Assembly: GCA_021297855.1 (NCBI GenBank)
Contig: JAJTHM010000045.1
Coordinates: 233-64,232 of the forward strand
DNA from: Sphingobacteriales bacterium
Lineage (GTDB): Bacteria; Bacteroidota; Bacteroidia; Chitinophagales; JADJOU01
Reading direction: 5' to 3'
DNA: 64,000 nucleotides
Shown piece by piece: positions 34,734 through 44,769 of this stretch. A program made the translations under genes and the position numbers. The notes beneath the pieces are model-generated. The model was not told where the DNA came from. It searched no databases and saw nothing but the letters and a program-made list of their open reading frames with translations. Positions within the stretch are counted from its first letter, which is position 1, and every line of letters begins with the position of its first letter.

Positions 34734-35723
34734 TTAATTTTCATGTTCATTAATTTTATCAATAATCTTTTCAGTTAGTATTTTGAAATCAATGTAAGCA
34801 CTTCTCACAGCATTTAAATGAGCACCTATTGCACCATCAGATGGCTTTAATAAGAAAATAGGCTTTCTTGATTCCATAGCCATAGGAATAAGACTATGAT
34901 AATGCTTCAGAAGAGATAAACAATTTTCGTCTTCATCAACAGTTTTATCGATAAGTAGTGATCCCTTCAAAACCGCTTCTACAAAAACTCGTGGAATTCT
35001 ATTAGCCCATTTTAAATAAGACTTTACTGGACGACTTTCTTTAATACCATGCTGCATAATAACATACCCTAGAGGCTTTATTGCAGAATGCGGCAATTTC
35101 AAATCTTTATCTGGATTTTCAGTTTTCCTCTTATCCCATTCTTTTCTCCATTTATCTAATCTGCTTCCAAGGTTTTTGAGACCTTGCAAAGAAAACAAAT
35201 CTGCTGCCATAGGCACAACTACATAATCAACCGCAATAAGTGTTGCTCTATTAATTGCTCCAAAGTTGGGACCAATATCAATTACACAGTAATCTGCATT
35301 CATTCGATTCCCAGATTCATCAATTGCTCTATAAAAAGATGAAATTATCCTGAAAGCTGCCTCATCGCCATCATTGCATTTTCCCCAATTTTCACTTAAT
35401 TTATCTTCAAACATTGATAGTTCTAGGTCGCCTGCTAGTAATCCTATTTTATCAGTTATTGTATGTATTGTTGCAGGTTTTATATCGCCAATACCTCTAT
35501 CTAAGGGTTTTACTGCATCTAAAATTGTTGGTCTTTCATTTTCATTTTCATAAATATCCGCCAACTTCTCATCGCTAAGAAACATTGAAGTTAGATTTGC
35601 CTGTGGATCTAAATCTACAGCTAAACATCTGTAACCCAGCTCAGCTAACATGTATGAGAAATGATAGACTAATGTTGTTTTGCCAACTCCACCTTTATTA
35701 TTAAAGAAAGCTATTGTTTTCAT
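34734..35723 (-). CDS. ParA/MinD-superfamily ATPase (orphan, no ParB nearby)
   Basis: Deviant Walker A NNKGGVGKTT, then DLDPQANLT and VIDIGPNFG. 329 aa. Confidence 0.8.
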   Translation of the reverse strand: MKTIAFFNNKGGVGKTTLVYHFSYMLAELGYRCLAVDLDPQANLTSMFLSDEKLADIYENENERPTILDAVKPLDRGIGDIKPATIHTITDKIGLLAGDLELSMFEDKLSENWGKCNDGDEAAFRIISSFYRAIDESGNRMNADYCVIDIGPNFGAINRATLIAVDYVVVPMAADLFSLQGLKNLGSRLDKWRKEWDKRKTENPDKDLKLPHSAIKPLGYVIMQHGIKESRPVKSYLKWANRIPRVFVEAVLKGSLLIDKTVDEDENCLSLLKHYHSLIPMAMESRKPIFLLKPSDGAIGAHLNAVRSAYIDFKILTEKIIDKINEHEN

Positions 35724-36904
35724 TCTGGTTTTTTATATATTATGGCGGAAAAACTAGTTGGTTGATCAAACAAAAATTCTGGCTCTGGATTCCCATTTTT
35801 TATTAATGCAGCACTAGCCCTTTGCACACCTAAATTAAATCTGTTTACATAACCTAAGTTATATGCTGCTTCAGCTATTGTTGGATTCCTATAATCATTT
35901 TCTCTTGGAAAATTTTCAGGTCTGGCTTTACCAAACAAACCACCTGCATTGGATATTTCAATCCTATTATTGAATTCATAAAACTTGATAGCGGCATTCG
36001 ACTGGTAATCTCTATGGATAATGGCATTAAATAGTAATTCTTTAATAGCTGAAATAGGCAAATTAAACTGATGTTCTTCCCCAATATTATACAAAACCTT
36101 TCTTATAATATTCGATTTGATAAACTCTTCCATGACTCTCATTTGGGTGCATAAATCACCTTCAAATCTTGTCTCAAAATCAAAATCACTAACTTCGTCA
36201 TCACCACTAAACCGAACATATTGAACAGCAGCACCGTGAATGAAAAATCGAGGGTTGGCTCCAAACATCAAGATAGCCGCATTGGTGGGGCAATCCGCAT
36301 TTAGGTCATAAAACTTTAATGAGGCTAATTGTTCCTTTATTTCTCTGCCATTGGCTAATAATGATTCTTCATCAATTGCAGTAGGTAAATAGGTAAGTTT
36401 GAAAATATCAATACTTATATCGCTTAAAGTGCTACCATAACAAGGTAAGGTATCCCAAGAAGTAGCAAAAGAACTTCTTTTTTCACTCAATATCCTTTCT
36501 TCAACATCTGTTGCATAGCCTTTTCGAGGGCCAATTCTAATACATACTTTCCCCTTAAATCTTGCTGGGGGCTGAAAACTTGGCTGAACCTCTGCCACCG
36601 CTACATAACCATCTGTGTATTCAAAACCTGCGACAACAATAACGGGTGGAGGAACTATCCTTCCATCAGTTCTATAATCCATCAATGTTTGAAGTATTTT
36701 TTCATCTTTTGGCAAACCACAGCGGCTTCCATTATCATTAACCCCTACAATTAAATAACCAGGTTTAATATGGGCAGGAAAGTCATTACAAAACGAGCAT
36801 ATTGCTTCTCCAAATTTGTTAGCATCATTTGTAGAAATTGTTTTTTCTACTCTATCTTGCTCTATATCGGCTATTAATTTATCTAATTCTTCTCTCGTTA
36901 TCAT
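35720..36904 (-). CDS. Schlafen/AlbA_2 domain + HATPase-like domain protein (COG2865-like, no C-terminal HTH)
   Basis: AlbA_2-like N-terminus ending GYLIVGVNDNG. C-terminal LLFNAIIHRDYQSN...IEISNAGGLFG matches the COG2865 ATPase-like module. ATGA overlap with the ParA-like gene. Confidence 0.65.
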   Translation of the reverse strand: MITREELDKLIADIEQDRVEKTISTNDANKFGEAICSFCNDFPAHIKPGYLIVGVNDNGSRCGLPKDEKILQTLMDYRTDGRIVPPPVIVVAGFEYTDGYVAVAEVQPSFQPPARFKGKVCIRIGPRKGYATDVEERILSEKRSSFATSWDTLPCYGSTLSDISIDIFKLTYLPTAIDEESLLANGREIKEQLASLKFYDLNADCPTNAAILMFGANPRFFIHGAAVQYVRFSGDDEVSDFDFETRFEGDLCTQMRVMEEFIKSNIIRKVLYNIGEEHQFNLPISAIKELLFNAIIHRDYQSNAAIKFYEFNNRIEISNAGGLFGKARPENFPRENDYRNPTIAEAAYNLGYVNRFNLGVQRASAALIKNGNPEPEFLFDQPTSFSAIIYKKPE

Positions 36905-36913
36905 AGTGCAAAT

Positions 36914-37027
36914 TTAGTTTATTTCAGTTTTTCTTTTAATTTCTTCTTCGAAATCATCTTCAACAAATTCAAAACCCCAAACATCTGTTAATACTTGATT
37001 GATTTTATTTTGGGCTTCGTTTTTCAT
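36914..37027 (-). CDS. possible 37-aa acidic peptide upstream of the Schlafen-like gene
   Basis: Manual translation gives MKNEAQNKINQVLTDVWGFEFVEDDFEEEIKRKTEIN. The stop lies 9 nt before the next ATG. Confidence 0.2.
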   Translation of the reverse strand: MKNEAQNKINQVLTDVWGFEFVEDDFEEEIKRKTEIN

Positions 37028-37501
37028 TTTTATTAATCGTGTCAAAACTTCAATTTGTGTCTAATTCTGAAACGATTTAATGTTGAATTTCTATTGTTGC
37101 TAAAGGAATTTCAATATTCGTACCCCTTTTTTTACTTCCAAACCATTGCCCAACTCCACTTGTTTTAACTTCTATAAAGATGTTAAAAGTGTCTTTACGT
37201 AAATGATAGCAGCCTAAATATCTGGGTAGTATATTTGAAGATGTTCGAAAGCAAGTCTATTTAAAATTTACTCATAAAAAACATTTATACAAATATACAT
37301 GATTTTTGGATTTTTTACCGCTTCGTTCATCTTAGTTCTATATAGTATTAGGCTACATTAGACATATTATACAAAGAATTCAGAGATTTCAAAACTCAGC
37401 GACAGAGTCATAGAATGCCGAACGGGAGATAATTGTGAATCTCAGCATTGATATAGATGTTCATGCCCTATTATATGGACTATATAGTTTTTCATTTGGT
37501 A

Positions 37502-38233
37502 TTACATGTTTTGTGTATAAAAGTTATAATCCTTTAACACCGTTTTGATAAAGTCTATATCATTTCCAGATACGTTTTTAGAGCCAGTTACCTCCTCGAT
37601 TTTGACGCGAAGCTTGCGAAGTGTTTCCGTATCCATCTTCTTGCTAGCTATCATAAAGGAATTTTTAATAATGCGTGCATCGTTGTCTGAAAGCTTGACC
37701 ACCAAGGGGTAGACAGGCTGATATGCTTCCCCAATATTTTCGAGGATAGTGCTATCTATGGTGTATTTATTTTTTAAAGAAATAACGGCAGTGCCCGCTG
37801 CCATATCGCCGAGTCTCTGCGAATTTTTACTAGAAACGATGGCCATAATACCTACGATGGCACTATTGGAATATATATCCACCAGACGCATGACCCAACG
37901 AATAAGATAATCGCCAAAACTAGCCTGATAGCCATCAATCTTGACCACCTTGGTTTTCATTATGCGCTTTCCTATGGTTTGACCTTCCAGCATGGTTTCT
38001 AGAAATAAGGAATAGAAAATGGCGGGGATAAAGAACACGATGTAAATAGCCATGATAGACCATTGGTCCATATCTCCTGTAAAGTCCAAATAGGATAAGA
38101 GCAAGGCTATAGTCAAAATATAGGCAAATTTGATAATCTCATCGATAAGATAGCCTAGCATTCGATCCCCAAAGGAGGCCAGGTTGAAATTGATATTGAC
38201 GTTTTGTGTAGTGTTGATCGCTACTTGGTCCAT
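37502..38233 (-). CDS. RDD family membrane protein
   Basis: GDRMLGYLIDEII and GQTIGKRIMKTKVV motifs with 3 TM segments. Confidence 0.75.
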   Translation of the reverse strand: MDQVAINTTQNVNINFNLASFGDRMLGYLIDEIIKFAYILTIALLLSYLDFTGDMDQWSIMAIYIVFFIPAIFYSLFLETMLEGQTIGKRIMKTKVVKIDGYQASFGDYLIRWVMRLVDIYSNSAIVGIMAIVSSKNSQRLGDMAAGTAVISLKNKYTIDSTILENIGEAYQPVYPLVVKLSDNDARIIKNSFMIASKKMDTETLRKLRVKIEEVTGSKNVSGNDIDFIKTVLKDYNFYTQNM

Positions 38234-38381
38234 GATAGTATATGGGCTTTGTTTATCGTTTTACAGACTTTGAAGTCGTTTTTACCGTCGGTAAATATAG
38301 TGACTATTTATAATTCGTATTTTAATTTAGTAAGACTCTTGTTACAAGAAATATTTTCCTTTATATTTGTGCCAATACCAA

Positions 38382-39374
38382 ATGAGAGAAGTAGCTTTTA
38401 TAAAACAAAACAAAACCAAATGGGAGCAATTTGAAGCTGCCATCATGGGAAGGAGTCTCAAAGGTCCCGATGAAATGGCTCAACTCTATATTCATTTGGT
38501 CAATGATTTGTCTTATGCCCAATCCTATTATCCCAAAAGCAATACGACCAAATATCTGAATTATCTGGCTTCACAGATTTACCAAAGAATCTATCAAACC
38601 AAGCGACAAGAAACCAATCGATTCGTCTATTTTTTTAAGACGGAGGTTCCACTGCTCATGCATGAGTATAGATTCATGACATTATTTACCTTTATTCTTT
38701 TTTTTACCTTCGTTGGTATCGGGGTGATTTCTGCTATCTACGATCCTGATTTTGTGCGATTGATACTGGGAGACGGATATGTAAACGATGCCTTGGAGAA
38801 TATTGAAAATGGAAATCCTATGGCGGTGTATGAGTCGGGATCCGACTGGGGGAGCTTTATAGGAATTACCTTCAATAATTTATATGTAGGTCTGCGATGC
38901 TATGTTTACGGAGTATTTGGAGGTTTAGGCACATTTTATGTTTTATTGACCAACTGTATTATGTTAGGTTCGTTTCAATATTTTTTTTATGAACACAAAG
39001 TATTCATTGAAAGCATTCGCGGTATTTGGGTTCACGGCAGTATGGAGATATTTGCTATAGTCATCGAAGCTACATCAGGATTTATACTGGGAGCCAGTAT
39101 CCTATTCCCGAAAACCTACTCTCGATTTAATTCATTTAAAATCGGCTTTCGCAATTCCTTCAAGATTTTGCTCAGCACTATGCCATTTACATTTTGCGCG
39201 GGTGTTTTGGAAGGGTTTATCACACGCTATGCCTTGGATATGCCGCTTGCATTGAATTTATTTATTATACTGGGCACCTTAGCTGTTATTTCATTTTATT
39301 ATTTGATATATCCATATTTTGTCATAAAAAAAACAGAGAGATTAAAATCCATTCTACATTTACAAACAAGTTAA
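38382..39374 (+). CDS. SpoIIM-like (stage II sporulation protein M family) membrane protein
   Basis: MREVAFIKQNKTKWEQFE start, and multi-TM with HGSMEIFAIVIEATSG. The ORF track starts at 38367. Confidence 0.65.
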   Translation: MREVAFIKQNKTKWEQFEAAIMGRSLKGPDEMAQLYIHLVNDLSYAQSYYPKSNTTKYLNYLASQIYQRIYQTKRQETNRFVYFFKTEVPLLMHEYRFMTLFTFILFFTFVGIGVISAIYDPDFVRLILGDGYVNDALENIENGNPMAVYESGSDWGSFIGITFNNLYVGLRCYVYGVFGGLGTFYVLLTNCIMLGSFQYFFYEHKVFIESIRGIWVHGSMEIFAIVIEATSGFILGASILFPKTYSRFNSFKIGFRNSFKILLSTMPFTFCAGVLEGFITRYALDMPLALNLFIILGTLAVISFYYLIYPYFVIKKTERLKSILHLQTS

Positions 39375-39435
39375 AAAATATTCATAACCCCAAATTCCTA
39401 GCTTTCAACTTTTCACTTTAAATTTTCAACATACC

Positions 39436-40377
39436 ATGTTTCAACTATACAAAAAAAGAGGTTTTAGCGATTTTCTGAATGACACCTTTGCATTTTTGAA
39501 ACTCAATGGCAAGCATTATTTAAAAAACTATACTATCCTTTGTGGTGGGTTTCTTTTAATATTGACCATACTGGGATATATTTTGGGTAAAGCCTATGTG
39601 GCTTTTATGTTTAGTGCCATACAAGGAAAATTTAGATTAGAGGGTTTGTTTGGTGGAAATATTGCCTTGTTTGTAGCTATCGTCATTCTATTTGTCATCA
39701 TTATTATCATCTTTAGCTTTCTCAGTTATCTCTACCCAATGGTATATTTGAGGCTATATGACGAGCACGGACATGCAGCGTTTTCGACCAAAGTCATTGG
39801 CGATCGATTAAGGGCAGATATTGGACGAACAGTTAAATTTACTCTTCTGACCTTACTATTCACTTTTTCTGTAGGATTATTGTTAATGGCTATCATAGTG
39901 CTACTTTTTTTTACAGTCATTGGTATTCCCTTTGCATTTATAGGCCTATTTGCTCTCGCTGGGGTTTACAATTTGGCATTTTTTCTATACGTCAACGATA
40001 AGGGCATGGGTTTTATTGATTCCTTTAAAACGGCTTTTGAATTCGTAAAAAATAATTTGTGGCCTGTCGTCGGTTCTAATTTTGCCATGTCTATGTTGAT
40101 ACAAATCATTGGCTCTGTGTTCTCAATGATTCCTTTCATTATTGGAATAATTTCTTTGATGTCCAGCCTTGAAAAATCGAGTTCTAATATACCAGAAACA
40201 GCAGGTTTTGCTGTAGCTATGGGCATTACCTTTGCCATTTCTTTATTGGTTAGCTATTTCTTGCAAAATTTATTGATATTAAATAACGGTATGATTTATT
40301 ATACCATGCAGGAGGCGAATCATAGCCATTTTTCTAAAAGTGAAATAGACCTCATAGGGACAGAAAGTGAATTTTAA
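39436..40377 (+). CDS. polytopic membrane protein, function unknown
   Basis: 313 aa, multiple TM segments, within the MoxR neighbourhood. Confidence 0.5.
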   Translation: MFQLYKKRGFSDFLNDTFAFLKLNGKHYLKNYTILCGGFLLILTILGYILGKAYVAFMFSAIQGKFRLEGLFGGNIALFVAIVILFVIIIIIFSFLSYLYPMVYLRLYDEHGHAAFSTKVIGDRLRADIGRTVKFTLLTLLFTFSVGLLLMAIIVLLFFTVIGIPFAFIGLFALAGVYNLAFFLYVNDKGMGFIDSFKTAFEFVKNNLWPVVGSNFAMSMLIQIIGSVFSMIPFIIGIISLMSSLEKSSSNIPETAGFAVAMGITFAISLLVSYFLQNLLILNNGMIYYTMQEANHSHFSKSEIDLIGTESEF

Positions 40378-41158
40378 AGGTTTACCATTTATTGTTCTAT
40401 TATTTTTTGTCACCTTGATCGAGGCACAGGAGACCGATTCTGCCTATATGGAAGAATCCCAAATTGCTGTTGATACTAGTTATTACGAAGAAGATGAAAA
40501 AGTTATCTCCTATGTGCATCCAGAAGATATAGAGCGGAGATATTTTGATTCTAATTTTAAGTCTAGATATAATACAGACCATTTTAACTATGAACCCAAG
40601 GTGCAAAAATTTACTCAATGGGAGCAGTTTAAACAGTGGTTATTGCGATGGCTACAGGATTTTTTCAATCTGCAAGACAAGAATGCGGCCTCCAAATGGT
40701 TTGAATATTTACAGAATTTTTTAGCCTTTATTTTAGTCGTCGGTGTTGTCTATTTTATCGTGAAGGCTATACTAAATAAAGAAGGAGGCTGGATTTTTGG
40801 GAGAGATAGCAAGGCGGAAACGATAGACCACACTAATGTTGAAGCAAAACTCCAATTAGCTAATTTTAGTGAATTGGTCGCAAGTTCTAGAAAAAAAGGA
40901 GATTATCGATTGGCCATTCGTTTTTATTATCTATGGCTTTTGCGAAAGATGTCGGACAATAAACTCATAGAATGGGATATCAATAAGACCAATATGGACT
41001 ACCTCTATGAGATAAAGAATGAAGGATTGCGGGAGCGATACAGCTATCATTGCTACGTGTATGACTATATATGGTACGGAGAATTTAATTTAGAGGAAGA
41101 GGAGTTTCGAAAAGTGGAAACGAGTTTTAATGAAACATTGAGAAGCATAGATGGATAA
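40367..41158 (+). CDS. DUF4129-like protein
   Basis: Signal peptide and one TM segment. AIRFYYLWLLRKMSDNKLIEWDINKTNMDYLYEI matches the DUF4129 core. Confidence 0.6.
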   Translation: MNFKGLPFIVLLFFVTLIEAQETDSAYMEESQIAVDTSYYEEDEKVISYVHPEDIERRYFDSNFKSRYNTDHFNYEPKVQKFTQWEQFKQWLLRWLQDFFNLQDKNAASKWFEYLQNFLAFILVVGVVYFIVKAILNKEGGWIFGRDSKAETIDHTNVEAKLQLANFSELVASSRKKGDYRLAIRFYYLWLLRKMSDNKLIEWDINKTNMDYLYEIKNEGLRERYSYHCYVYDYIWYGEFNLEEEEFRKVETSFNETLRSIDG

Positions 41159-42374
41159 TCGATTAAAAATATATGTTGCTATCTTAATTCTGATTTTTAT
41201 TGGAATAGCCTTTATCGAAGTTAATAGACCGCAAGAGATAGACTGGAGACCCCATTATACCACCAGTAAGAAGACTCCATATGGTCTATATGTGCTGGAT
41301 AAAGAATTGAAAAAATTATGCAATGGAATTTATATAGAGAAGCTGAACGAAACTCCTTATGAATTTTTTGATAAGCAATACGATTATGATTCTTCTATCG
41401 CCAATTACACCATTCGAGGTACTTATTTCTCTGTAGAAGAAAATTCTAACTTAGATCAAGAATCAGCAAGTGAAATACTTCATTTTGTATCCAAGGGCAA
41501 TGAAGCTTTTCTAGCTGCTAGTTCTTTCTCCCAAACTATTTTTGATTCGCTAAAAATAAAACTAGATTATTCTTATGACTTCAACGACACAGTTCAGCTA
41601 AAATTGGACTATGTGGATACGAATACCTACTATTTCAATAAAATTAATTACTTGTCTTTTTTCGACTCCTTTGATACGAGCAAAGTAACTGTGCTAGGAC
41701 ATGTTCAGGTTAGTTTTGGAGATTCTATCAAGAGTCACGTGAATTTTATCCGAGTGGCTTACGGGGATGGGTTTATTTTCCTACATAGTTTGCCTAATGT
41801 ATTTACCAATTATCACCTACTCAAGTCCAATAACCACCTCTACACGTCAGGAGTATTGTCCTTCATACAAAATTCGCGGCCCATCTACTGGAATACCAAT
41901 GAATATGATCGGGGAAATAGAGCAGAAACACCCCTGCGAGTGATACTCGAGCACGCTTCTCTCCGCTGGGCTTGGTATTTTATGTTGATTGGATTTCTGA
42001 TTTATCTTCTATTCAATGCCAAGCGAAAACAACGCATCATTCCTATCATACCACCTGTATTGAATACGACCGTGGACTTTACAAAAACGATTGCGAATAT
42101 GTATTTTCAAGAAGGACATTTTAAAACGGTCATGGAAAAGCGAATCATCTATTTTCTGGAGAGAGTGCGCTCAGAGTTTCATCTAGATACCCAAAAACTG
42201 GATGATAAGTTTATACATAAACTGCAATTGAAGTCGGGAAGACCAAAGGACCTTATAGAAAAAATAGTCAAAAAGATAACGAATAAAAAAATGAACCGAT
42301 ATTTGTCAGAGAATGACTTGGTGGAGTTGAATGGACTTTTAGAAGATTTTTGGACAACTAAAACATATAATTAA
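41151..42374 (+). CDS. DUF4350-like protein
   Basis: N-terminal TM segment followed by KKTPYGLYVLDKEL. Conserved position before MoxR. Confidence 0.55.
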   Translation: MDNRLKIYVAILILIFIGIAFIEVNRPQEIDWRPHYTTSKKTPYGLYVLDKELKKLCNGIYIEKLNETPYEFFDKQYDYDSSIANYTIRGTYFSVEENSNLDQESASEILHFVSKGNEAFLAASSFSQTIFDSLKIKLDYSYDFNDTVQLKLDYVDTNTYYFNKINYLSFFDSFDTSKVTVLGHVQVSFGDSIKSHVNFIRVAYGDGFIFLHSLPNVFTNYHLLKSNNHLYTSGVLSFIQNSRPIYWNTNEYDRGNRAETPLRVILEHASLRWAWYFMLIGFLIYLLFNAKRKQRIIPIIPPVLNTTVDFTKTIANMYFQEGHFKTVMEKRIIYFLERVRSEFHLDTQKLDDKFIHKLQLKSGRPKDLIEKIVKKITNKKMNRYLSENDLVELNGLLEDFWTTKTYN

Positions 42375-42384
42375 ATATAACATT

Positions 42385-43398
42385 ATGGACAATAACAATG
42401 AACAATCCACACCCATGGAACAGTCAGAGCTCAATTTTAAAAATAGAATTGATCTTTCAGGTCTGCAAAACGCCGTTCTTGGCATCAAGGCTGAATTAGC
42501 TAAAGTCATCGTCGGTCAGGAAAGAATGATTGACCGCATATTAGTTTCTATTTTGGCTAATGGACATATTCTGCTAGAAGGAGTTCCTGGTGTAGCGAAA
42601 ACGATTACTGCTAAATTGATATCCAAGACGATTGACATTGGTTTTTCTCGCATTCAGTTTACGCCTGATTTGATGCCGTCAGATATATTAGGGACTTCCG
42701 TTTTTAATCTAAAAACCACGGAATTCGAATTTAAAAAAGGCCCTATTTTTTCTAATTTGATTCTGATTGATGAAATCAATCGTGCACCAGCAAAAACGCA
42801 GGCAGCGCTCTTTGAGGTAATGGAGGAACGACAAATAAGCATCGATGGTCACCAATATATCATGGAACAACCTTTTTTGGTTATCGCTACACAAAATCCT
42901 ATAGAGCAGGAAGGTACCTATCGTCTGCCAGAAGCACAATTAGACAGGTTTTTATTTAAAATTAATATTGACTATCCTAGTTTGGAAGAAGAAGTCAATA
43001 TTTTGATGCGTGAACACGAATTGCAAAATGATGATAAACTAGAACAAGTCAATAAAGTAATTAGTGGTGCCCAATTGCGAGAATATCAACATGCCGTCAA
43101 ACAGATTCAGGTGGAGAAACACCTTATGGAGTATATCGCGCGGATAGTGGCCAATACGCGCGAGAATTCATTTTTGTATTTAGGTGCTTCGCCGAGGGCT
43201 TCTATCGCTATTCTCAATGCAGCCAAAGGGTATGCCGCTATCAGAGGAAGAGATTTTGTGACTCCAGATGATATCAAAGAATCAGCCATACCTGTTCTGC
43301 AGCATCGTGTGGTCGTAGCGCCCGAAAGAGAAATGGAAGGCATGACCGGACAGGAAATTATTTTACAAATTTTGGAGACAATTGAAGTCCCTAGGTAG
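42385..43398 (+). CDS. moxR: MoxR-family AAA+ ATPase
   Basis: LLEGVPGVAKT Walker A, ILIDEINRA Walker B, VIATQNPIEQEGTYRLPEAQLDRF. Confidence 0.92.
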   Translation: MDNNNEQSTPMEQSELNFKNRIDLSGLQNAVLGIKAELAKVIVGQERMIDRILVSILANGHILLEGVPGVAKTITAKLISKTIDIGFSRIQFTPDLMPSDILGTSVFNLKTTEFEFKKGPIFSNLILIDEINRAPAKTQAALFEVMEERQISIDGHQYIMEQPFLVIATQNPIEQEGTYRLPEAQLDRFLFKINIDYPSLEEEVNILMREHELQNDDKLEQVNKVISGAQLREYQHAVKQIQVEKHLMEYIARIVANTRENSFLYLGASPRASIAILNAAKGYAAIRGRDFVTPDDIKESAIPVLQHRVVVAPEREMEGMTGQEIILQILETIEVPR

Positions 43399-43437
43399 TG
43401 GTCCGTTTTCAGTGGTCCGTCGCAGTAGATTATATAC

Positions 43438-44769
43438 ATGAAGTTTTATAGACAGCTTTATTTAAATCAACTTTTTTTCGCTTGCATCCTGGTGATCATT
43501 GTAGGATTTGCAGTATCCTTTATATTTCCAGCACTCTATATGGTCGTATGGTATGCCTTCTTTGCTTTGATGACCTTTGTGTTGCTAGATATTTTAATTT
43601 TATTTGGAAAGGCGAGAGGTGTCATAGGACATAGAACTGTGCCTGAAAAATTCTCTAATGGAGATCAAAATGATGTTCTGCTGACCATAGAAAATAACTA
43701 TACATTTAATATATTTACCACTACTATTGATGAAATTCCCTTTCAATTTCAACTTCGAAATTTTAGTATAAAGCAAAAAATTAAACCGAGGAAAGTAATA
43801 GATTTCTCTTATTCCTTGCGCCCGTTGGAGCGCGGAGAATATGTTTTCGGAAATTTAAACATTTATGTTTCGTCGCCCCTTCGACTCGTCGCAAGAAGAT
43901 TTACCTTCGGAGCCAATGAAATGGTCCCCACCTATCCCGGTTTTCTGCAATTGAAGAAGTACGATTTACTGGCATTTTCTAATAACTTGCATCAATATGG
44001 TACAAAGAAAATACGGCGCGTAGGTTATTCGATGGAGTTCGAACAAATCAAAGAATATGTACAGGGTGATGATATTCGTACCTTAAACTGGAAGGCTACT
44101 GCAAAAAAAAATGCCCTCATGGTCAATCAATACCAGACCGAGCGATCACAGACGATATACATGGTTATAGATAAAGGGAGAGTCATGAAAATGCCCTTCA
44201 ATGATTTGTCCCTTTTGGACTATGCGATTAATGCCACCTTGGTGCTAAGTAATATAATATTGAAAAAAGAGGATAGAGCGGGGATGCTCACCTTTTCAAA
44301 AAAAGTGGAGAATCGAGTAGTAGCAGAGAAGAGAGGCTCGCAAATGAATAAACTATTGGAAGCGCTATATAATGTAGAAACTAACTTTCAAGAGAGCGAT
44401 TTCGGACGATTGTATATCGATATAAAAAAGCATATTCAGCATCGGAGTTTGATTATGCTCTATACCAATTTTGAAACAATGGATGGGCTCTATCGTCAGC
44501 TTCCATACTTAAAAGGTATCGCTAAAAATCATCTATTGGTTGTTGTTTTTTTTCAGAATACCGAGCTTCATGATATGGTGAGTCAAAAGGCCAGGAATGT
44601 GCAGGAGGTTTATGATAAAGCGATTGCTGAGAAATTTATTTTTGAGAAAAAATTGATTGTCAATGAGCTCCGCAAGTATGGTATTTACTCTCTACTCACG
44701 CGACCGGAAGATCTCACAGTAGATAGTATCAATAAATATTTGGAGATTAAAACCAGAGGGTTGATTTGA
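43438..44769 (+). CDS. DUF58 domain protein (vWA-like MoxR partner)
   Basis: GDDIRTLNWKATAKKNALMVNQYQTERSQ motif and two N-terminal TM segments. Confidence 0.85.
   Translation: MKFYRQLYLNQLFFACILVIIVGFAVSFIFPALYMVVWYAFFALMTFVLLDILILFGKARGVIGHRTVPEKFSNGDQNDVLLTIENNYTFNIFTTTIDEIPFQFQLRNFSIKQKIKPRKVIDFSYSLRPLERGEYVFGNLNIYVSSPLRLVARRFTFGANEMVPTYPGFLQLKKYDLLAFSNNLHQYGTKKIRRVGYSMEFEQIKEYVQGDDIRTLNWKATAKKNALMVNQYQTERSQTIYMVIDKGRVMKMPFNDLSLLDYAINATLVLSNIILKKEDRAGMLTFSKKVENRVVAEKRGSQMNKLLEALYNVETNFQESDFGRLYIDIKKHIQHRSLIMLYTNFETMDGLYRQLPYLKGIAKNHLLVVVFFQNTELHDMVSQKARNVQEVYDKAIAEKFIFEKKLIVNELRKYGIYSLLTRPEDLTVDSINKYLEIKTRGLI

What the first reader, a model, noticed from the sequence alone, without database searches (positions are those of the whole stretch)
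34734..36904. Translationally coupled ParA-like ATPase + Schlafen/AlbA_2-HATPase pair in an AT-rich, ORF-poor pocket: candidate uncharacterised conflict/defence module
The two genes overlap by ATGA. The upstream product combines an AlbA_2/Schlafen-like N-terminal domain with the COG2865-type ATPase-like C-terminal module (AIIHRDY...ISNAGG), but lacks the usual terminal HTH. The downstream product is a 329-aa ParA/MinD ATPase (KGGVGKT, DLDPQANLT) with a long C-terminal extension. There is no ParB, plasmid, replication or division context. The pair sits between about 490 bp and about 600 bp of ORF-free DNA that contains gene fragments, and it is visibly more AT-rich than the flanking gdh and RDD/MoxR blocks. 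COG2865/Schlafen-like proteins are recurrent in defence islands. I do not recognise this pairing with a ParA-like ATPase as a named system.
Basis: partly seen in the sequence, partly recalled or inferred. Interest (0 to 1): 0.6.

Follow-up and report, generated by a model that had tools for sequence, protein, structure and literature searches.

The report
Schlafen nuclease paired with ParA-like ATPase
Two overlapping genes, a Schlafen-type RNase fused to a small ATP-binding domain and a dedicated ParA-like ATPase, form a conserved mobile two-gene module found in several bacterial phyla; it is most likely an unnamed anti-phage or toxin-type system, though nobody has tested it.

Summary
The two genes are real and sit at the stated coordinates, with an ATGA overlap. 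The upstream protein has a SLFN_AlbA_2 nuclease fold plus a GHKL (HATPase_c_4) domain, a unit recently named "Schlatpase", and it has no HTH. The downstream protein is a complete ParA-fold ATPase of the DIP2308/3PG5 subfamily.

All 80 related reference-genome loci, from four phyla, keep the same gene order. The two proteins co-evolve (r = 0.91). One lineage carries them fused into a single 731-aa protein. No ParB or any other third gene is conserved, and no close copy occurs on plasmids or phages.

In 14 of 80 loci the pair is nested in or beside BREX or Hma defence operons. Relatives of the ATPase pair in the same way with SIR2 or HEPN effector genes.

The most likely function is a two-gene abortive-infection or toxin-type module: an RNase effector controlled by a ParA-like ATP switch. 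This is inferred, not shown. The AT-rich-pocket and gene-fragment claims are weak. PADLOC v2 and the papers I read do not name this system. I rate it a new variant of a known kind.

The parts
35720..36904 (-). Gene 1: standalone 'Schlatpase' (Schlafen/AlbA_2 nuclease-fold domain plus GHKL-type HATPase_c_4 domain), 394 aa, no HTH
   Evidence: ORF. Pfam. AF2 model pLDDT 84.9. Foldseek matches 3LMM over the full length, SLFN11/13/5/14 N-domains and the SAMD9 tRNase, and PDK/HK853 GHKL domains.
36521..36862 (-). SLFN_AlbA_2 domain (aa 15-128). The putative active site is E15, E20 and D57; T22 sits at the canonical Lys position (motif codons at 36839-36862).
   Evidence: Pfam. Residue counts over 66 family members: E15 66/66, E20 66/66, T22 66/66, D57 58 D and 6 N. 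The motif definition Ex4(E/D)xK comes from PMC13056530.
35741..35992 (-). GHKL / HATPase_c_4 domain (aa 305-388 by Pfam). The N-box E289/N293 lies just upstream of it, and the G-rich ISNAGGL motif is at aa 317-323.
   Evidence: Pfam. E289 66/66, N293 65/66, G321/G322/G325 conserved. PDB 3LMM sequence match at aa 281-376. GHKL fold matches.
35720..35723 (-). ATGA stop/start overlap (translational coupling)
   Evidence: Read directly. The same -4 overlap occurs in 38 of 60 related loci, and 57 of 60 junctions lie between -4 and +1 nt.
34734..35723 (-). Gene 2: ParA-fold (SIMIBI-class) ATPase of the DIP2308/3PG5 subfamily, 329 aa
   Evidence: Pfam and NCBIfam. PDB 3PG5 sequence match E=2e-33 over the full length. 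AF2 pLDDT 86.7, pTM 0.89. Foldseek finds 3PG5 first, then Soj/ParA.
35673..35696 (-). Deviant Walker A KGGVGKTT (aa 10-17), including the signature Lys K10 and the P-loop Lys K15
   Evidence: translation. K10 71/73, K15 71/73, D37 73/73, D39 72/73, D149 73/73.
36909..36916 (-). TAAATTTG, a match to the Bacteroidota -7 promoter consensus TAnnTTTG, starting 12 nt upstream of the gene-1 ATG. It is a possible own promoter with a very short leader.
   Evidence: Sequence. The motif lies at -11 to -14 in 10 of 51 Bacteroidota-type loci, including the closest relatives L001-L003. That this consensus is the Bacteroidota promoter element is my own knowledge, and function was not tested.

Best explanation
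The pair is a self-contained, horizontally mobile two-gene conflict module, most likely an abortive-infection type anti-phage system.

Gene 1 encodes the effector. Its Schlafen-fold domain would cut RNA, probably tRNA. By analogy with the Runella SLFN-pAgo protein, nuclease activity would depend on ATP-driven oligomerisation through the attached GHKL domain.

Gene 2 encodes a ParA-type ATP-dependent dimer switch. It is made in step with the effector through translational coupling and binds at or near the effector's C-terminus. That is the position where some of the effector's closest relatives carry a winged-helix DNA-binding domain. I propose that the ATPase holds the nuclease inactive, or licenses it, according to its own nucleotide, DNA or partner state. 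A phage cue that perturbs this state would release RNA cleavage and stop translation.

Shown here: the gene architecture, conservation, co-evolution, the natural fusion, intact motifs, nesting inside defence operons, and interchangeable effectors in sister dyads. Inferred: RNase activity, the substrate, a physical complex, the direction of regulation, the trigger, and the anti-phage phenotype.
For: (1) Obligate pairing. All 80 reference-genome loci found through the ATPase have the Schlatpase gene upstream on the same strand, within 74 bp in 79 of them. Only these two genes recur across loci. Junctions are -4 to +1 nt in 57/60 loci. Pairwise distances of the two proteins correlate at r=0.91 over 1830 pairs.
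(2) Natural fusion. P0435 (731 aa) carries SLFN_AlbA_2, HATPase_c_4 and the ParA domain in the same order, joined by a roughly 12-residue linker. The identical sequence is on 15 contigs from several samples.
(3) Effector credentials. The fold matches Schlafen nucleases and the SAMD9 tRNase. E15 and E20 are invariant and occupy the same positions as RorSlfn5 E15/D20, whose mutation abolishes defence. The GHKL Glu and Asn are invariant or nearly so. In RzAgo the same SLFN+GHKL unit needs ATP binding to form the tetramer that cleaves tRNA (10.64898/2026.05.29.728809).
(4) ATPase credentials. Walker A, A' and B residues are conserved in 71-73 of 73 sequences.
(5) Defence context. The pair lies between pglX and pglZ in 7 loci and next to HmaA and/or HmaB in 7 loci. 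In the published test of Hma-embedded genes, 7 of 9 candidates gave phage defence (10.1101/2024.01.29.577857).
(6) Modularity. ATPases of the same subfamily, alignable over the full length at 25-34% identity, are translationally coupled to SIR2_2 genes in 9 loci examined and to a HEPN gene in one. The SIR2 partners resemble ThsA, LmuA and Dsr NADases.
(7) Domain replacement. Among the closest longer relatives of the Schlatpase, 3 of 7 scanned have a clear C-terminal wHTH and 3 have weak HTH hits; the one whose context was checked has no ParA neighbour.
(8) A ParA/Soj-like ATPase next to an RNase toxin was predicted as a toxin-antitoxin type dyad in 2013 (PMC3710099).
Against: No experiment exists for this pair. 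Most loci (66/80), including the window (between RDD and DUF4890/gdh), are not nested in a BREX or Hma operon; I did not score the other loci individually for defence genes, and many immediate neighbours are housekeeping genes. The window protein and its clade have Thr at the canonical catalytic Lys position (Ex4ExT rather than Ex4ExK), so nuclease activity could be altered or lost; a sister dyad (L188) keeps the canonical Lys. The Slfn-HisKinase architectures tested in E. coli gave no protection against the phage panel used (PMC13056530). Solo members of the ATPase subfamily are conserved across many Corynebacterium species without an effector gene, so the ATPase may have other roles. The direction of control (inhibitor or activator) is a guess. 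I could not run a complex prediction or obtain expression data.
Confidence: 0.58

Rival explanations
1. The pair is a toxin-antitoxin type addiction or stress module with no dedicated anti-phage role. The Schlatpase is the RNase toxin and the ParA-like ATPase is its ATP-dependent antitoxin. The pair persists because it is selfish and stabilises the DNA it sits in.
For: This model was proposed for ParA/Soj-like + HEPN dyads (PMC3710099). The pair is compact, translationally coupled and scattered across unrelated contexts, as expected of a selfish mobile module. Two loci show a decayed or IS-interrupted Schlatpase beside an intact ATPase (L055, L061), which fits toxin loss being tolerated.
Against: This largely overlaps with the best explanation, since many TA-like modules also defend against phage. 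Nesting inside BREX and Hma operons (14/80 loci) is more typical of defence accessories. The pair has no close homologue on 72,556 plasmids, where addiction modules are common. The toxin-loss asymmetry cannot be interpreted, because the loci were found through the ATPase.
Confidence: 0.22
2. The pair has a housekeeping or regulatory role. It would be a non-toxic RNA- or DNA-binding COG2865-type regulator whose localisation or activity is controlled by a ParA-like positioning ATPase, for example in RNA processing or nucleoid-associated regulation.
For: COG2865 proteins are often annotated as regulators. The canonical catalytic Lys is replaced by Thr in this clade. Many loci lie among housekeeping genes. 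Solo DIP2308-type ATPases are conserved across Corynebacterium species.
Against: The protein has lost the HTH that would make it a DNA-binding regulator. The acidic catalytic residues are invariant. The distribution is patchy: 247 of 185,579 species representatives matched. Genomes labelled as different Bacteroidota orders share about 90% identity, which suggests horizontal transfer rather than a core function. None of 80 relatives of the neighbouring RDD gene has the pair. Sister dyads carry overtly toxic SIR2 and HEPN partners.
Confidence: 0.12
3. The pair is a DNA partition or positioning system. The ParA-like ATPase would segregate a replicon or cargo, and the AlbA_2 protein would act as an unconventional ParB-like adaptor.
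For: The ATPase has a full ParA fold with an intact deviant Walker A, and its best non-3PG5 structural matches are Soj/ParA proteins.
Against: No ParB or centromere-binding gene appears in the window neighbourhood or as a conserved neighbour in 80 loci. The loci are chromosomal and their positions vary. No plasmid or phage homologue exceeds 60% identity, and only 2 of 2.9 million viral contigs matched. NCBIfam partition models score far below their cut-offs, for example 57 bits against 180 for ParA_partition. The partner has a nuclease fold and conserved catalytic acids.
Confidence: 0.03

Closest known systems
Prokaryotic Schlafen defence effectors (pSlfn), 'Slfn-HisKinase' class; 'Schlatpase' supradomain (PMC13056530; bioRxiv 10.64898/2026.05.29.728809)
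   Same: Same two domains, PF04326 and PF13749, in the same order. The acidic catalytic residues and the GHKL Glu/Asn are conserved. The fold matches Schlafen nucleases. The pair is associated with BREX, as reported for Schlafen-HK-wHTH proteins (PMC12839542).
   Different: This protein is always encoded with, and in one lineage fused to, a dedicated ParA-like ATPase that those papers' main texts do not mention. It has no HTH, pAgo, Ig-like or other fused sensor. The window clade has Thr in place of the motif Lys. No activity has been shown for this clade.
ParA/Soj-like ATPase + HEPN RNase dyads, predicted toxin-antitoxin systems (Anantharaman et al. 2013, PMC3710099)
   Same: A ParA-fold ATPase is tightly coupled to a predicted RNase toxin. 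I found a HEPN-linked member of the same ATPase subfamily (L183). That paper notes Schlafen fusions in the HEPN family concerned.
   Different: The effector here is a Schlatpase, not HEPN. The gene order is reversed, with the effector first. The L183 partner is HEPN_RiboL-PSP, not the MAE_18760 family named in the paper. I could not test whether the ATPases of the 2013 dyads belong to the same subfamily.
PARIS (AriA ABC ATPase + AriB Toprim tRNase) and other ATPase-plus-effector systems (Gabija, Septu, HEC-02/03)
   Same: The logic is the same: a two-gene module in which an ATPase partner controls a nuclease effector, with effectors exchanged between related ATPases. This is a resemblance in how it works, drawn from my own knowledge.
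   Different: The ATPase here is a SIMIBI-class ParA/MinD fold, not an ABC ATPase, and there is no sequence relationship. The trigger and the assembly are unknown.
PDB 3PG5 (DIP2308) and 3LMM (DIP2311), Corynebacterium diphtheriae structural-genomics proteins of unknown function
   Same: These are the closest solved structures: 3PG5 for the ATPase (E=2e-33, full length) and 3LMM for the Schlatpase (Foldseek E=1.7e-19, full length).
   Different: Identity is about 27% and 18%. 3LMM is a longer chain (583 aa). In the C. diphtheriae contig I could read, the DIP2308 homologue has no AlbA_2 neighbour within 6 kb.
Chromosome and plasmid partition ParA/Soj
   Same: The fold, the deviant Walker A and the acidic Walker A'/B residues are shared.
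   Different: There is no ParB, no centromere and no replicon context. The subfamily has its own insertions and C-terminal motifs, and partition HMMs score below their cut-offs.

Membership tests
SLFN_AlbA_2 / prokaryotic Schlafen nuclease | Schlafen (AlbA_2) nuclease fold | tested here: met
   Pfam PF04326 at 48.2 bits against a cut-off of 25.3. Foldseek matches SLFN11, SLFN13, SLFN5, SLFN14 N-domains and the SAMD9 tRNase at E 2e-4 to 7e-3, and 2KYY.
SLFN_AlbA_2 / prokaryotic Schlafen nuclease | Acidic residues of the catalytic motif Ex4(E/D)xK, plus the downstream Asp | tested here: met
   E15 66/66, E20 66/66, D57 58 D and 6 N of 66. The positions match RorSlfn5 E15/D20.
SLFN_AlbA_2 / prokaryotic Schlafen nuclease | Lys of the Ex4(E/D)xK motif | tested here: not met
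   T22 is invariant (66/66). The adjacent K21 is K or R in 59/66. Among full-length representatives at 40% identity or more, 21 are T-type and 2 are K-type; below 40%, 31 are K-type and 7 are T-type. A sister ParA-linked dyad (L188) has the canonical ERK. The protein is therefore a member by homology, but its catalytic competence is unproven.
SLFN_AlbA_2 / prokaryotic Schlafen nuclease | tRNA cleavage and phage protection | not testable with these tools
   This needs biochemistry and phage assays.
Schlatpase supradomain (SLFN + GHKL PF13749) | PF13749 GHKL domain following the SLFN domain, with the N-box Glu/Asn for ATP and Mg2+ | tested here: met
   Pfam PF13749 at 48.2 bits against a cut-off of 26. 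E289 66/66 and N293 65/66. GHKL kinase fold matches. PADLOC pAgo and Aga models align to aa 150-370, the shared module.
COG2865-type Schlafen-HK-wHTH protein (BREX auxiliary) | C-terminal winged-helix/HTH domain | tested here: not met
   No HTH family was found, and the protein ends 6 residues after the GHKL domain. Several near relatives of 484-542 aa do have one: 3 of 7 scanned clearly, 3 weakly.
ParA/MinD (SIMIBI) ATPase fold | Deviant Walker A KGGxxK[ST], Walker A' and B acids, ParA fold | tested here: met
   AAA_31 E=7.9e-32. Residue counts. Foldseek matches Soj/ParA at E about 1e-11.
ParABS-type partition system | Cognate ParB or centromere-binding partner, and a replicon or origin context | tested here: not met
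   No ParB among the window neighbours. No conserved third gene in 80 loci. Partition HMMs score far below their cut-offs. No close plasmid or phage copies.
DIP2308 (PDB 3PG5)-type ParA-like subfamily | Full-length alignment including the helical insertion and the C-terminal S-[LM]-[IV]-P / DG..GA[QH] motifs | tested here: met
   hmmsearch E=2e-33 over residues 1-311. Foldseek top hit with TM 0.64-0.72. Multiple alignment with SIR2-, HEPN-linked and solo members.
Named defence systems in PADLOC-DB v2.0.0 (including PDC candidates, Hma, BREX) | A full-length match of either protein to a system component model | tested here: not met
   The ParA protein gives only P-loop-level hits (PDC-M28B 2e-06 over aa 2-42; mad8 0.0095). 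The Schlatpase gives only shared-domain hits to pAgo and Aga models. It is not HmaC and not among HEC-01 to HEC-09.
BREX or Hma accessory gene | Location inside a BREX or Hma operon | tested here: not met
   The window copy lies between RDD and DUF4890/gdh. However, 7 related loci lie between pglX and pglZ, and 7 lie beside HmaA and/or HmaB.

The most novel reading that the evidence does not exclude
DIP2308-type ParA-like ATPases are the common sensor or regulator of a previously unrecognised superfamily of two-gene immune modules with interchangeable toxic effectors: a Schlatpase RNase, a SIR2 NADase or a HEPN RNase. To my knowledge this would be the first defence systems built on a SIMIBI-class (ParA/MinD) ATP switch. 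In it, the ATP-dependent dimerisation or DNA-binding cycle that normally positions cargo is used to detect infection and release the effector.
Probability: 0.35. Interest if true: 0.75.

Novelty: new variant of a known kind. Interest (0 to 1): 0.6.

Why it matters
Standalone Schlafen-GHKL proteins are the commonest prokaryotic Schlafen architecture. Yet the two tested in E. coli showed no phenotype, and what senses infection for them is unknown. This work identifies a conserved partner for one large clade, and that partner is sometimes fused to the nuclease. The partner is a concrete candidate for the missing sensor or regulator, and it comes with a defined set of mutants to test. The same ATPase subfamily is coupled to SIR2 and HEPN effectors. 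If the inference holds, ParA-type ATPases would join ABC, STAND and AAA+ ATPases as a chassis for bacterial immunity. It would also give a function to two structural-genomics structures (3PG5 and 3LMM) that have had none for about 15 years.

Tried and rejected
(1) Partition system. Rejected: no ParB, no conserved third gene, no plasmid or phage carriage.

(2) The pair is simply part of the Hma system (HmaC) or one of HEC-01 to HEC-09. Rejected by the PADLOC scan and by reading the preprint.

(3) The window flanks are remnants of pglX/pglZ or of other neighbour genes. Rejected: no credible similarity, and no Pfam or Rfam hits in the flanks.

(4) Search for an empty site to define the insertion boundaries. 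All six contigs examined that carry the identical RDD protein also carry the pair (22 such contigs were read). None of 80 more distant RDD loci has the pair, but they also lack gdh/DUF4890 beside RDD, so no exact empty site was found.

(5) The Lys-to-Thr change as a marker of ParA linkage. Rejected: L188 has the canonical Lys and a 52%-identical ParA partner. Some T-type relatives instead carry a wHTH, and the one context checked (P0362) lacks ParA.

(6) DIP2308 and DIP2311 as an adjacent pair in Corynebacterium. Not supported in the one contig I could read. I could not fetch the reference strain.

(7) Toxin/antitoxin decay asymmetry. Two loci have a decayed Schlatpase beside an intact ATPase, but this cannot be interpreted because the loci were found through the ATPase.

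(8) Expression evidence from public RNA runs.

(9) The sigma-70 promoter and terminator scan gave fewer promoter-like hits than shuffled sequence and no terminators. It is not informative for Bacteroidota.

(10) A phage-borne origin. Only 2 of 2.9 million viral contigs matched.
Full report
**1. The observation**

The window has two minus-strand ORFs exactly where stated: 35720..36904 (394 aa) and 34734..35723 (329 aa). The junction reads ...CCA GAA TGA with ATG AAA ACA... overlapping it, so the stop and start codons share ATGA.

The upstream protein matches SLFN_AlbA_2 at aa 15-128 (E=1.9e-12) and HATPase_c_4 at aa 305-388 (E=1.1e-12). Both scores are above Pfam's cut-offs. It has no HTH and ends six residues after the second domain. 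The downstream protein matches ParA-type models (AAA_31, E=7.9e-32) and carries KGGVGKT and DLDPQANLT. NCBIfam partition models score far below their cut-offs. Both proteins have large homologue families, with the best 120 hits for each at 66-100% identity. The genes are therefore real.

Three subsidiary points in the finding do not hold up.
- The ParA protein has no C-terminal extension. All 329 residues align with PDB 3PG5 (E=2e-33, residues 1-311). They model as one globular domain with pLDDT 86.7 and pTM 0.89. The top structural matches are 3PG5 and then Soj/ParA. The extra length comes mainly from insertions inside the fold, including a helical region at about aa 100-141.
- The AT-richness is mild. 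GC is 0.354 and 0.338, against 0.373 +/- 0.041 for 47 other ORFs in the window. The 485- and 597-nt flanking gaps are long, but five gaps in the window are longer.
- The open stretches in the flanks match no protein or RNA family and no neighbour gene of related loci.

**2. Is the pairing conserved?**

I built a profile of the ATPase and scanned one genome for each of 185,579 species. It found 247 relatives, and the best 80 loci were kept. By their record titles, these come from many Bacteroidota families, a Caldithrix MAG, Alpha-, Beta- and Gammaproteobacteria, and Acidobacteriota.

Every one of the 80 loci has a homologue of the Schlafen-GHKL gene upstream on the same strand. In 79 it lies within 74 bp. 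The exception, L061, has a DDE transposase inserted between the two genes. Where both ORFs are complete, 38 of 60 junctions are the same 4-nt overlap, and 57 of 60 lie between -4 and +1 nt. Pairwise distances of the two proteins correlate at r=0.91 over 1830 pairs.

Clustering all ORFs of the 80 loci shows that only these two genes recur. There is no ParB and no third component.

**3. A natural fusion**

I searched the 50%-identity representative library with the Schlafen-GHKL protein. This turned up P0435, a 731-aa protein with SLFN_AlbA_2, HATPase_c_4 and a ParA-type AAA_31 domain in the same order as the gene pair. Its ParA part is 45% identical to the window ATPase. A short linker (NTPITPAKNKFY) joins the two halves. 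The identical sequence is on 15 contigs from several samples, between proS and a YhdP-like gene. That argues against an assembly or gene-calling error. Such a fusion is classic evidence that two proteins act together, with the nuclease C-terminus next to the ATPase N-terminus.

**4. What the two proteins are**

The model of the upstream protein (pLDDT 84.9) matches 3LMM over its full length. Its N-terminal domain matches the nuclease domains of SLFN11, 13, 5 and 14 and the SAMD9 tRNase. Its C-terminal part matches GHKL kinases such as PDK and HK853. This SLFN+GHKL unit was recently named "Schlatpase". [quoted passage not shown] Slfn-HisKinase is also the commonest architecture among prokaryotic Schlafens, and two other Schlafen architectures protect E. 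coli from phage (PMC13056530).

In this family E15 and E20 are invariant (66/66) and D57 is nearly so. They occupy the positions of the catalytic E15/D20 of RorSlfn5. The GHKL N-box E289 and N293 are conserved.

One departure stands out. The Lys of the published Ex4(E/D)xK motif is an invariant Thr here (T22, 66/66), with a basic residue next to it in 59 of 66 sequences. Among full-length representatives, 21 of 23 at 40% identity or more carry Thr. Below 40% identity, 31 have the canonical Lys and 7 have Thr. The change does not track ParA linkage. L188 has the canonical ERK and a 52%-identical ParA partner with a 4-nt overlap. Some T-type relatives carry a wHTH, and the one whose context I checked has no ParA gene nearby.

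The ATPase keeps the signature and P-loop lysines (K10, K15) and the Walker A' and B acids in 71-73 of 73 sequences. It should therefore be an active ATP-dependent dimer switch.

**5. Context**

The immediate neighbours vary and many are housekeeping genes. However, the pair lies between pglX and pglZ of type 1 BREX operons in 7 loci. It lies beside HmaA and/or HmaB of Hma systems in 7 more. Other neighbours match PtuA, mad3, AAA_21 and a TOTE primase.

Nesting inside multi-gene defence operons has been used as a discovery principle, and 7 of 9 Hma-embedded candidates proved active (10.1101/2024.01.29.577857). This pair is not among those candidates. PADLOC v2, which includes the untested PDC candidates, has no model for either protein beyond shared-domain or P-loop hits. 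The BREX survey describes Schlafen-HK-wHTH proteins as auxiliaries in at least 1017 taxa but mentions no ParA partner (PMC12839542).

The pair is not plasmid- or phage-borne. No hit above 60% identity appears in 72,556 plasmids or 50,697 phages, and only 2 of 2.9 million viral contigs matched.

In the window's own population, all six contigs examined from several samples have the pair in the same place. None of 80 more distant relatives of the adjacent RDD gene has it. Genomes labelled as different Bacteroidota orders share about 90% identity for the ATPase, which suggests horizontal transfer.

A match to the Bacteroidota -7 promoter consensus (TAAATTTG) starts 12 nt upstream of the first ATG. 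The same motif is present at -11 to -14 in 10 of 51 Bacteroidota-type loci.

**6. The ATPase subfamily has interchangeable partners**

3PG5 is DIP2308 of Corynebacterium diphtheriae, and in that genus the gene stands alone. In a clade 41-45% identical to DIP2308, all six contexts examined show the ATPase followed directly by a SIR2_2 gene, overlapping or abutting in most of them. The same ParA-SIR2 dyad is annotated on plasmids of Vibrio ponticus, Salmonella Infantis and Spirosoma oryzicola. The SIR2 partners resemble ThsA, LmuA and Dsr NADases. On a Burkholderia glumae plasmid the partner is a HEPN_RiboL-PSP protein.

All these ATPases align with the window protein over their full length at 25-34% identity. 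They share the helical insertion and the C-terminal motifs that short canonical ParAs lack. A ParA/Soj-like ATPase next to a HEPN RNase was noted in 2013 and proposed as a toxin-antitoxin system with the ATPase as antitoxin. The HEPN family concerned includes Schlafen fusions (PMC3710099).

**7. Mechanism**

The anatomy points to an effector plus a regulator. The Schlatpase would be a toxic RNase whose activity depends on GHKL-driven oligomerisation. The ParA-like ATPase is made in fixed ratio with it and sits at its C-terminus, where some of its closest relatives have a DNA-binding wHTH. I think it most likely that the ATPase restrains or licenses the nuclease according to its nucleotide, DNA or partner state. 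An infection cue would shift that state, leading to RNA cleavage and translation arrest.

PARIS is the nearest functional analogue that I know of: an ATPase holds a tRNase until a phage protein triggers release. It uses an unrelated ABC ATPase.

The shown steps are the architecture, conservation, co-evolution, fusion, motif integrity, defence embedding and effector swapping. The enzymatic activities, the complex, the direction of control, the trigger and the phenotype are all inferred.

Evidence against the model:
- The catalytic Lys is missing in this clade.
- The tested Slfn-HisKinase systems gave no phenotype.
- Most loci are not nested in a BREX or Hma operon, and many have housekeeping neighbours.
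- Solo ATPases are conserved in Corynebacterium.

**8. Rivals**

A pure addiction-type toxin-antitoxin role overlaps with the best explanation and cannot be separated from it here. A housekeeping or regulatory role is unlikely, given the lost HTH, the patchy and apparently horizontally transferred distribution, and the toxic partners of sister dyads. A partition role is essentially excluded.

**9. Novelty and verdict**

The components and the general idea are known: prokaryotic Schlafen effectors, the Schlatpase unit, and ParA/Soj-RNase dyads. I did not find three things described in the searchable literature or in PADLOC v2:
- this specific, widespread Schlatpase + DIP2308-type ParA dyad;
- its natural fusion;
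- the use of one ParA-like subfamily with Schlatpase, SIR2 and HEPN effectors.

Supplementary tables of the Schlafen paper were not available to check. I rate the finding a new variant of a known kind and a good candidate for experiment.

Noticed in passing
PDB entries 3PG5 and 3LMM; locus L083: The closest solved structures of the two adjacent window proteins are DIP2308 (3PG5) and DIP2311 (3LMM). Both are Corynebacterium diphtheriae structural-genomics targets whose names are three locus tags apart. In another C. diphtheriae strain's contig, no AlbA_2 gene lies within 6 kb of the DIP2308 homologue. The link may be a strain-specific island or a coincidence.
   Followed up: partly
window 36914-37045 (-): A 43-aa ORF ends 10 nt upstream of the Schlafen gene; JGI calls a 37-aa gene there. 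Its last codons and the TAAATTTG motif resemble the sequence upstream of the pair in L002 (…EDEIKEEVETN*), but the ORF is broken in L001 and L003. There is no significant Pfam hit, and it shows no similarity to the PglX C-terminus.
   Followed up: partly
window 37080-37256 (-): A 59-codon open stretch contains 'IFIEVKTSG', which is reminiscent of a PD-(D/E)xK nuclease motif. It has no Pfam hit and no relative in the related loci. It could be a decayed gene or chance.
   Followed up: partly
protein P0399 (653 aa): This is a Schlafen-GHKL protein fused to a SAVED domain, the cyclic-oligonucleotide sensor of CBASS-type signalling. It has the canonical Ex4ExK motif. It is another sensor attached at the same C-terminal position.
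   Followed up: no
L175:2192-6391: A ParA-like + SIR2_2 dyad is followed on the same strand by a MazG-like gene and a gene with the SLFN-g3_helicase domain (PF09848). This may be a larger defence cluster.
   Followed up: no
L061:8770-9726 and L055:9741-9965: In Roseateles (L061), a DDE transposase gene lies between a Schlafen-GHKL homologue that lacks its last ~38 residues and the intact ATPase gene. In Ca. Accumulibacter (L055), only about 75 C-terminal codons of the Schlafen-GHKL gene remain next to an intact ATPase, directly after HmaA.
   Followed up: partly
window 37502-44769; loci L096-L173: The divergent SpoIIM / RDD gene pair and the adjoining 313-aa ORF homologue are conserved in most of the metagenome loci that reach that side. 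In the window this block continues into DUF4350, MoxR and DUF58 genes. The SpoIIM-RDD spacer is about 22 nt in those loci but 133 nt in the window. The DNA beyond RDD differs from the window, where the pair sits.
   Followed up: partly
L009 and L035 (record titles): These MAG records are titled 'Rickettsia typhi' and 'Chryseobacterium gleum', yet their copies of the pair group by identity (69-78%) with the Bacteroidota loci. The 'Rickettsia typhi' label in particular looks like a mislabelled bin.
   Followed up: no
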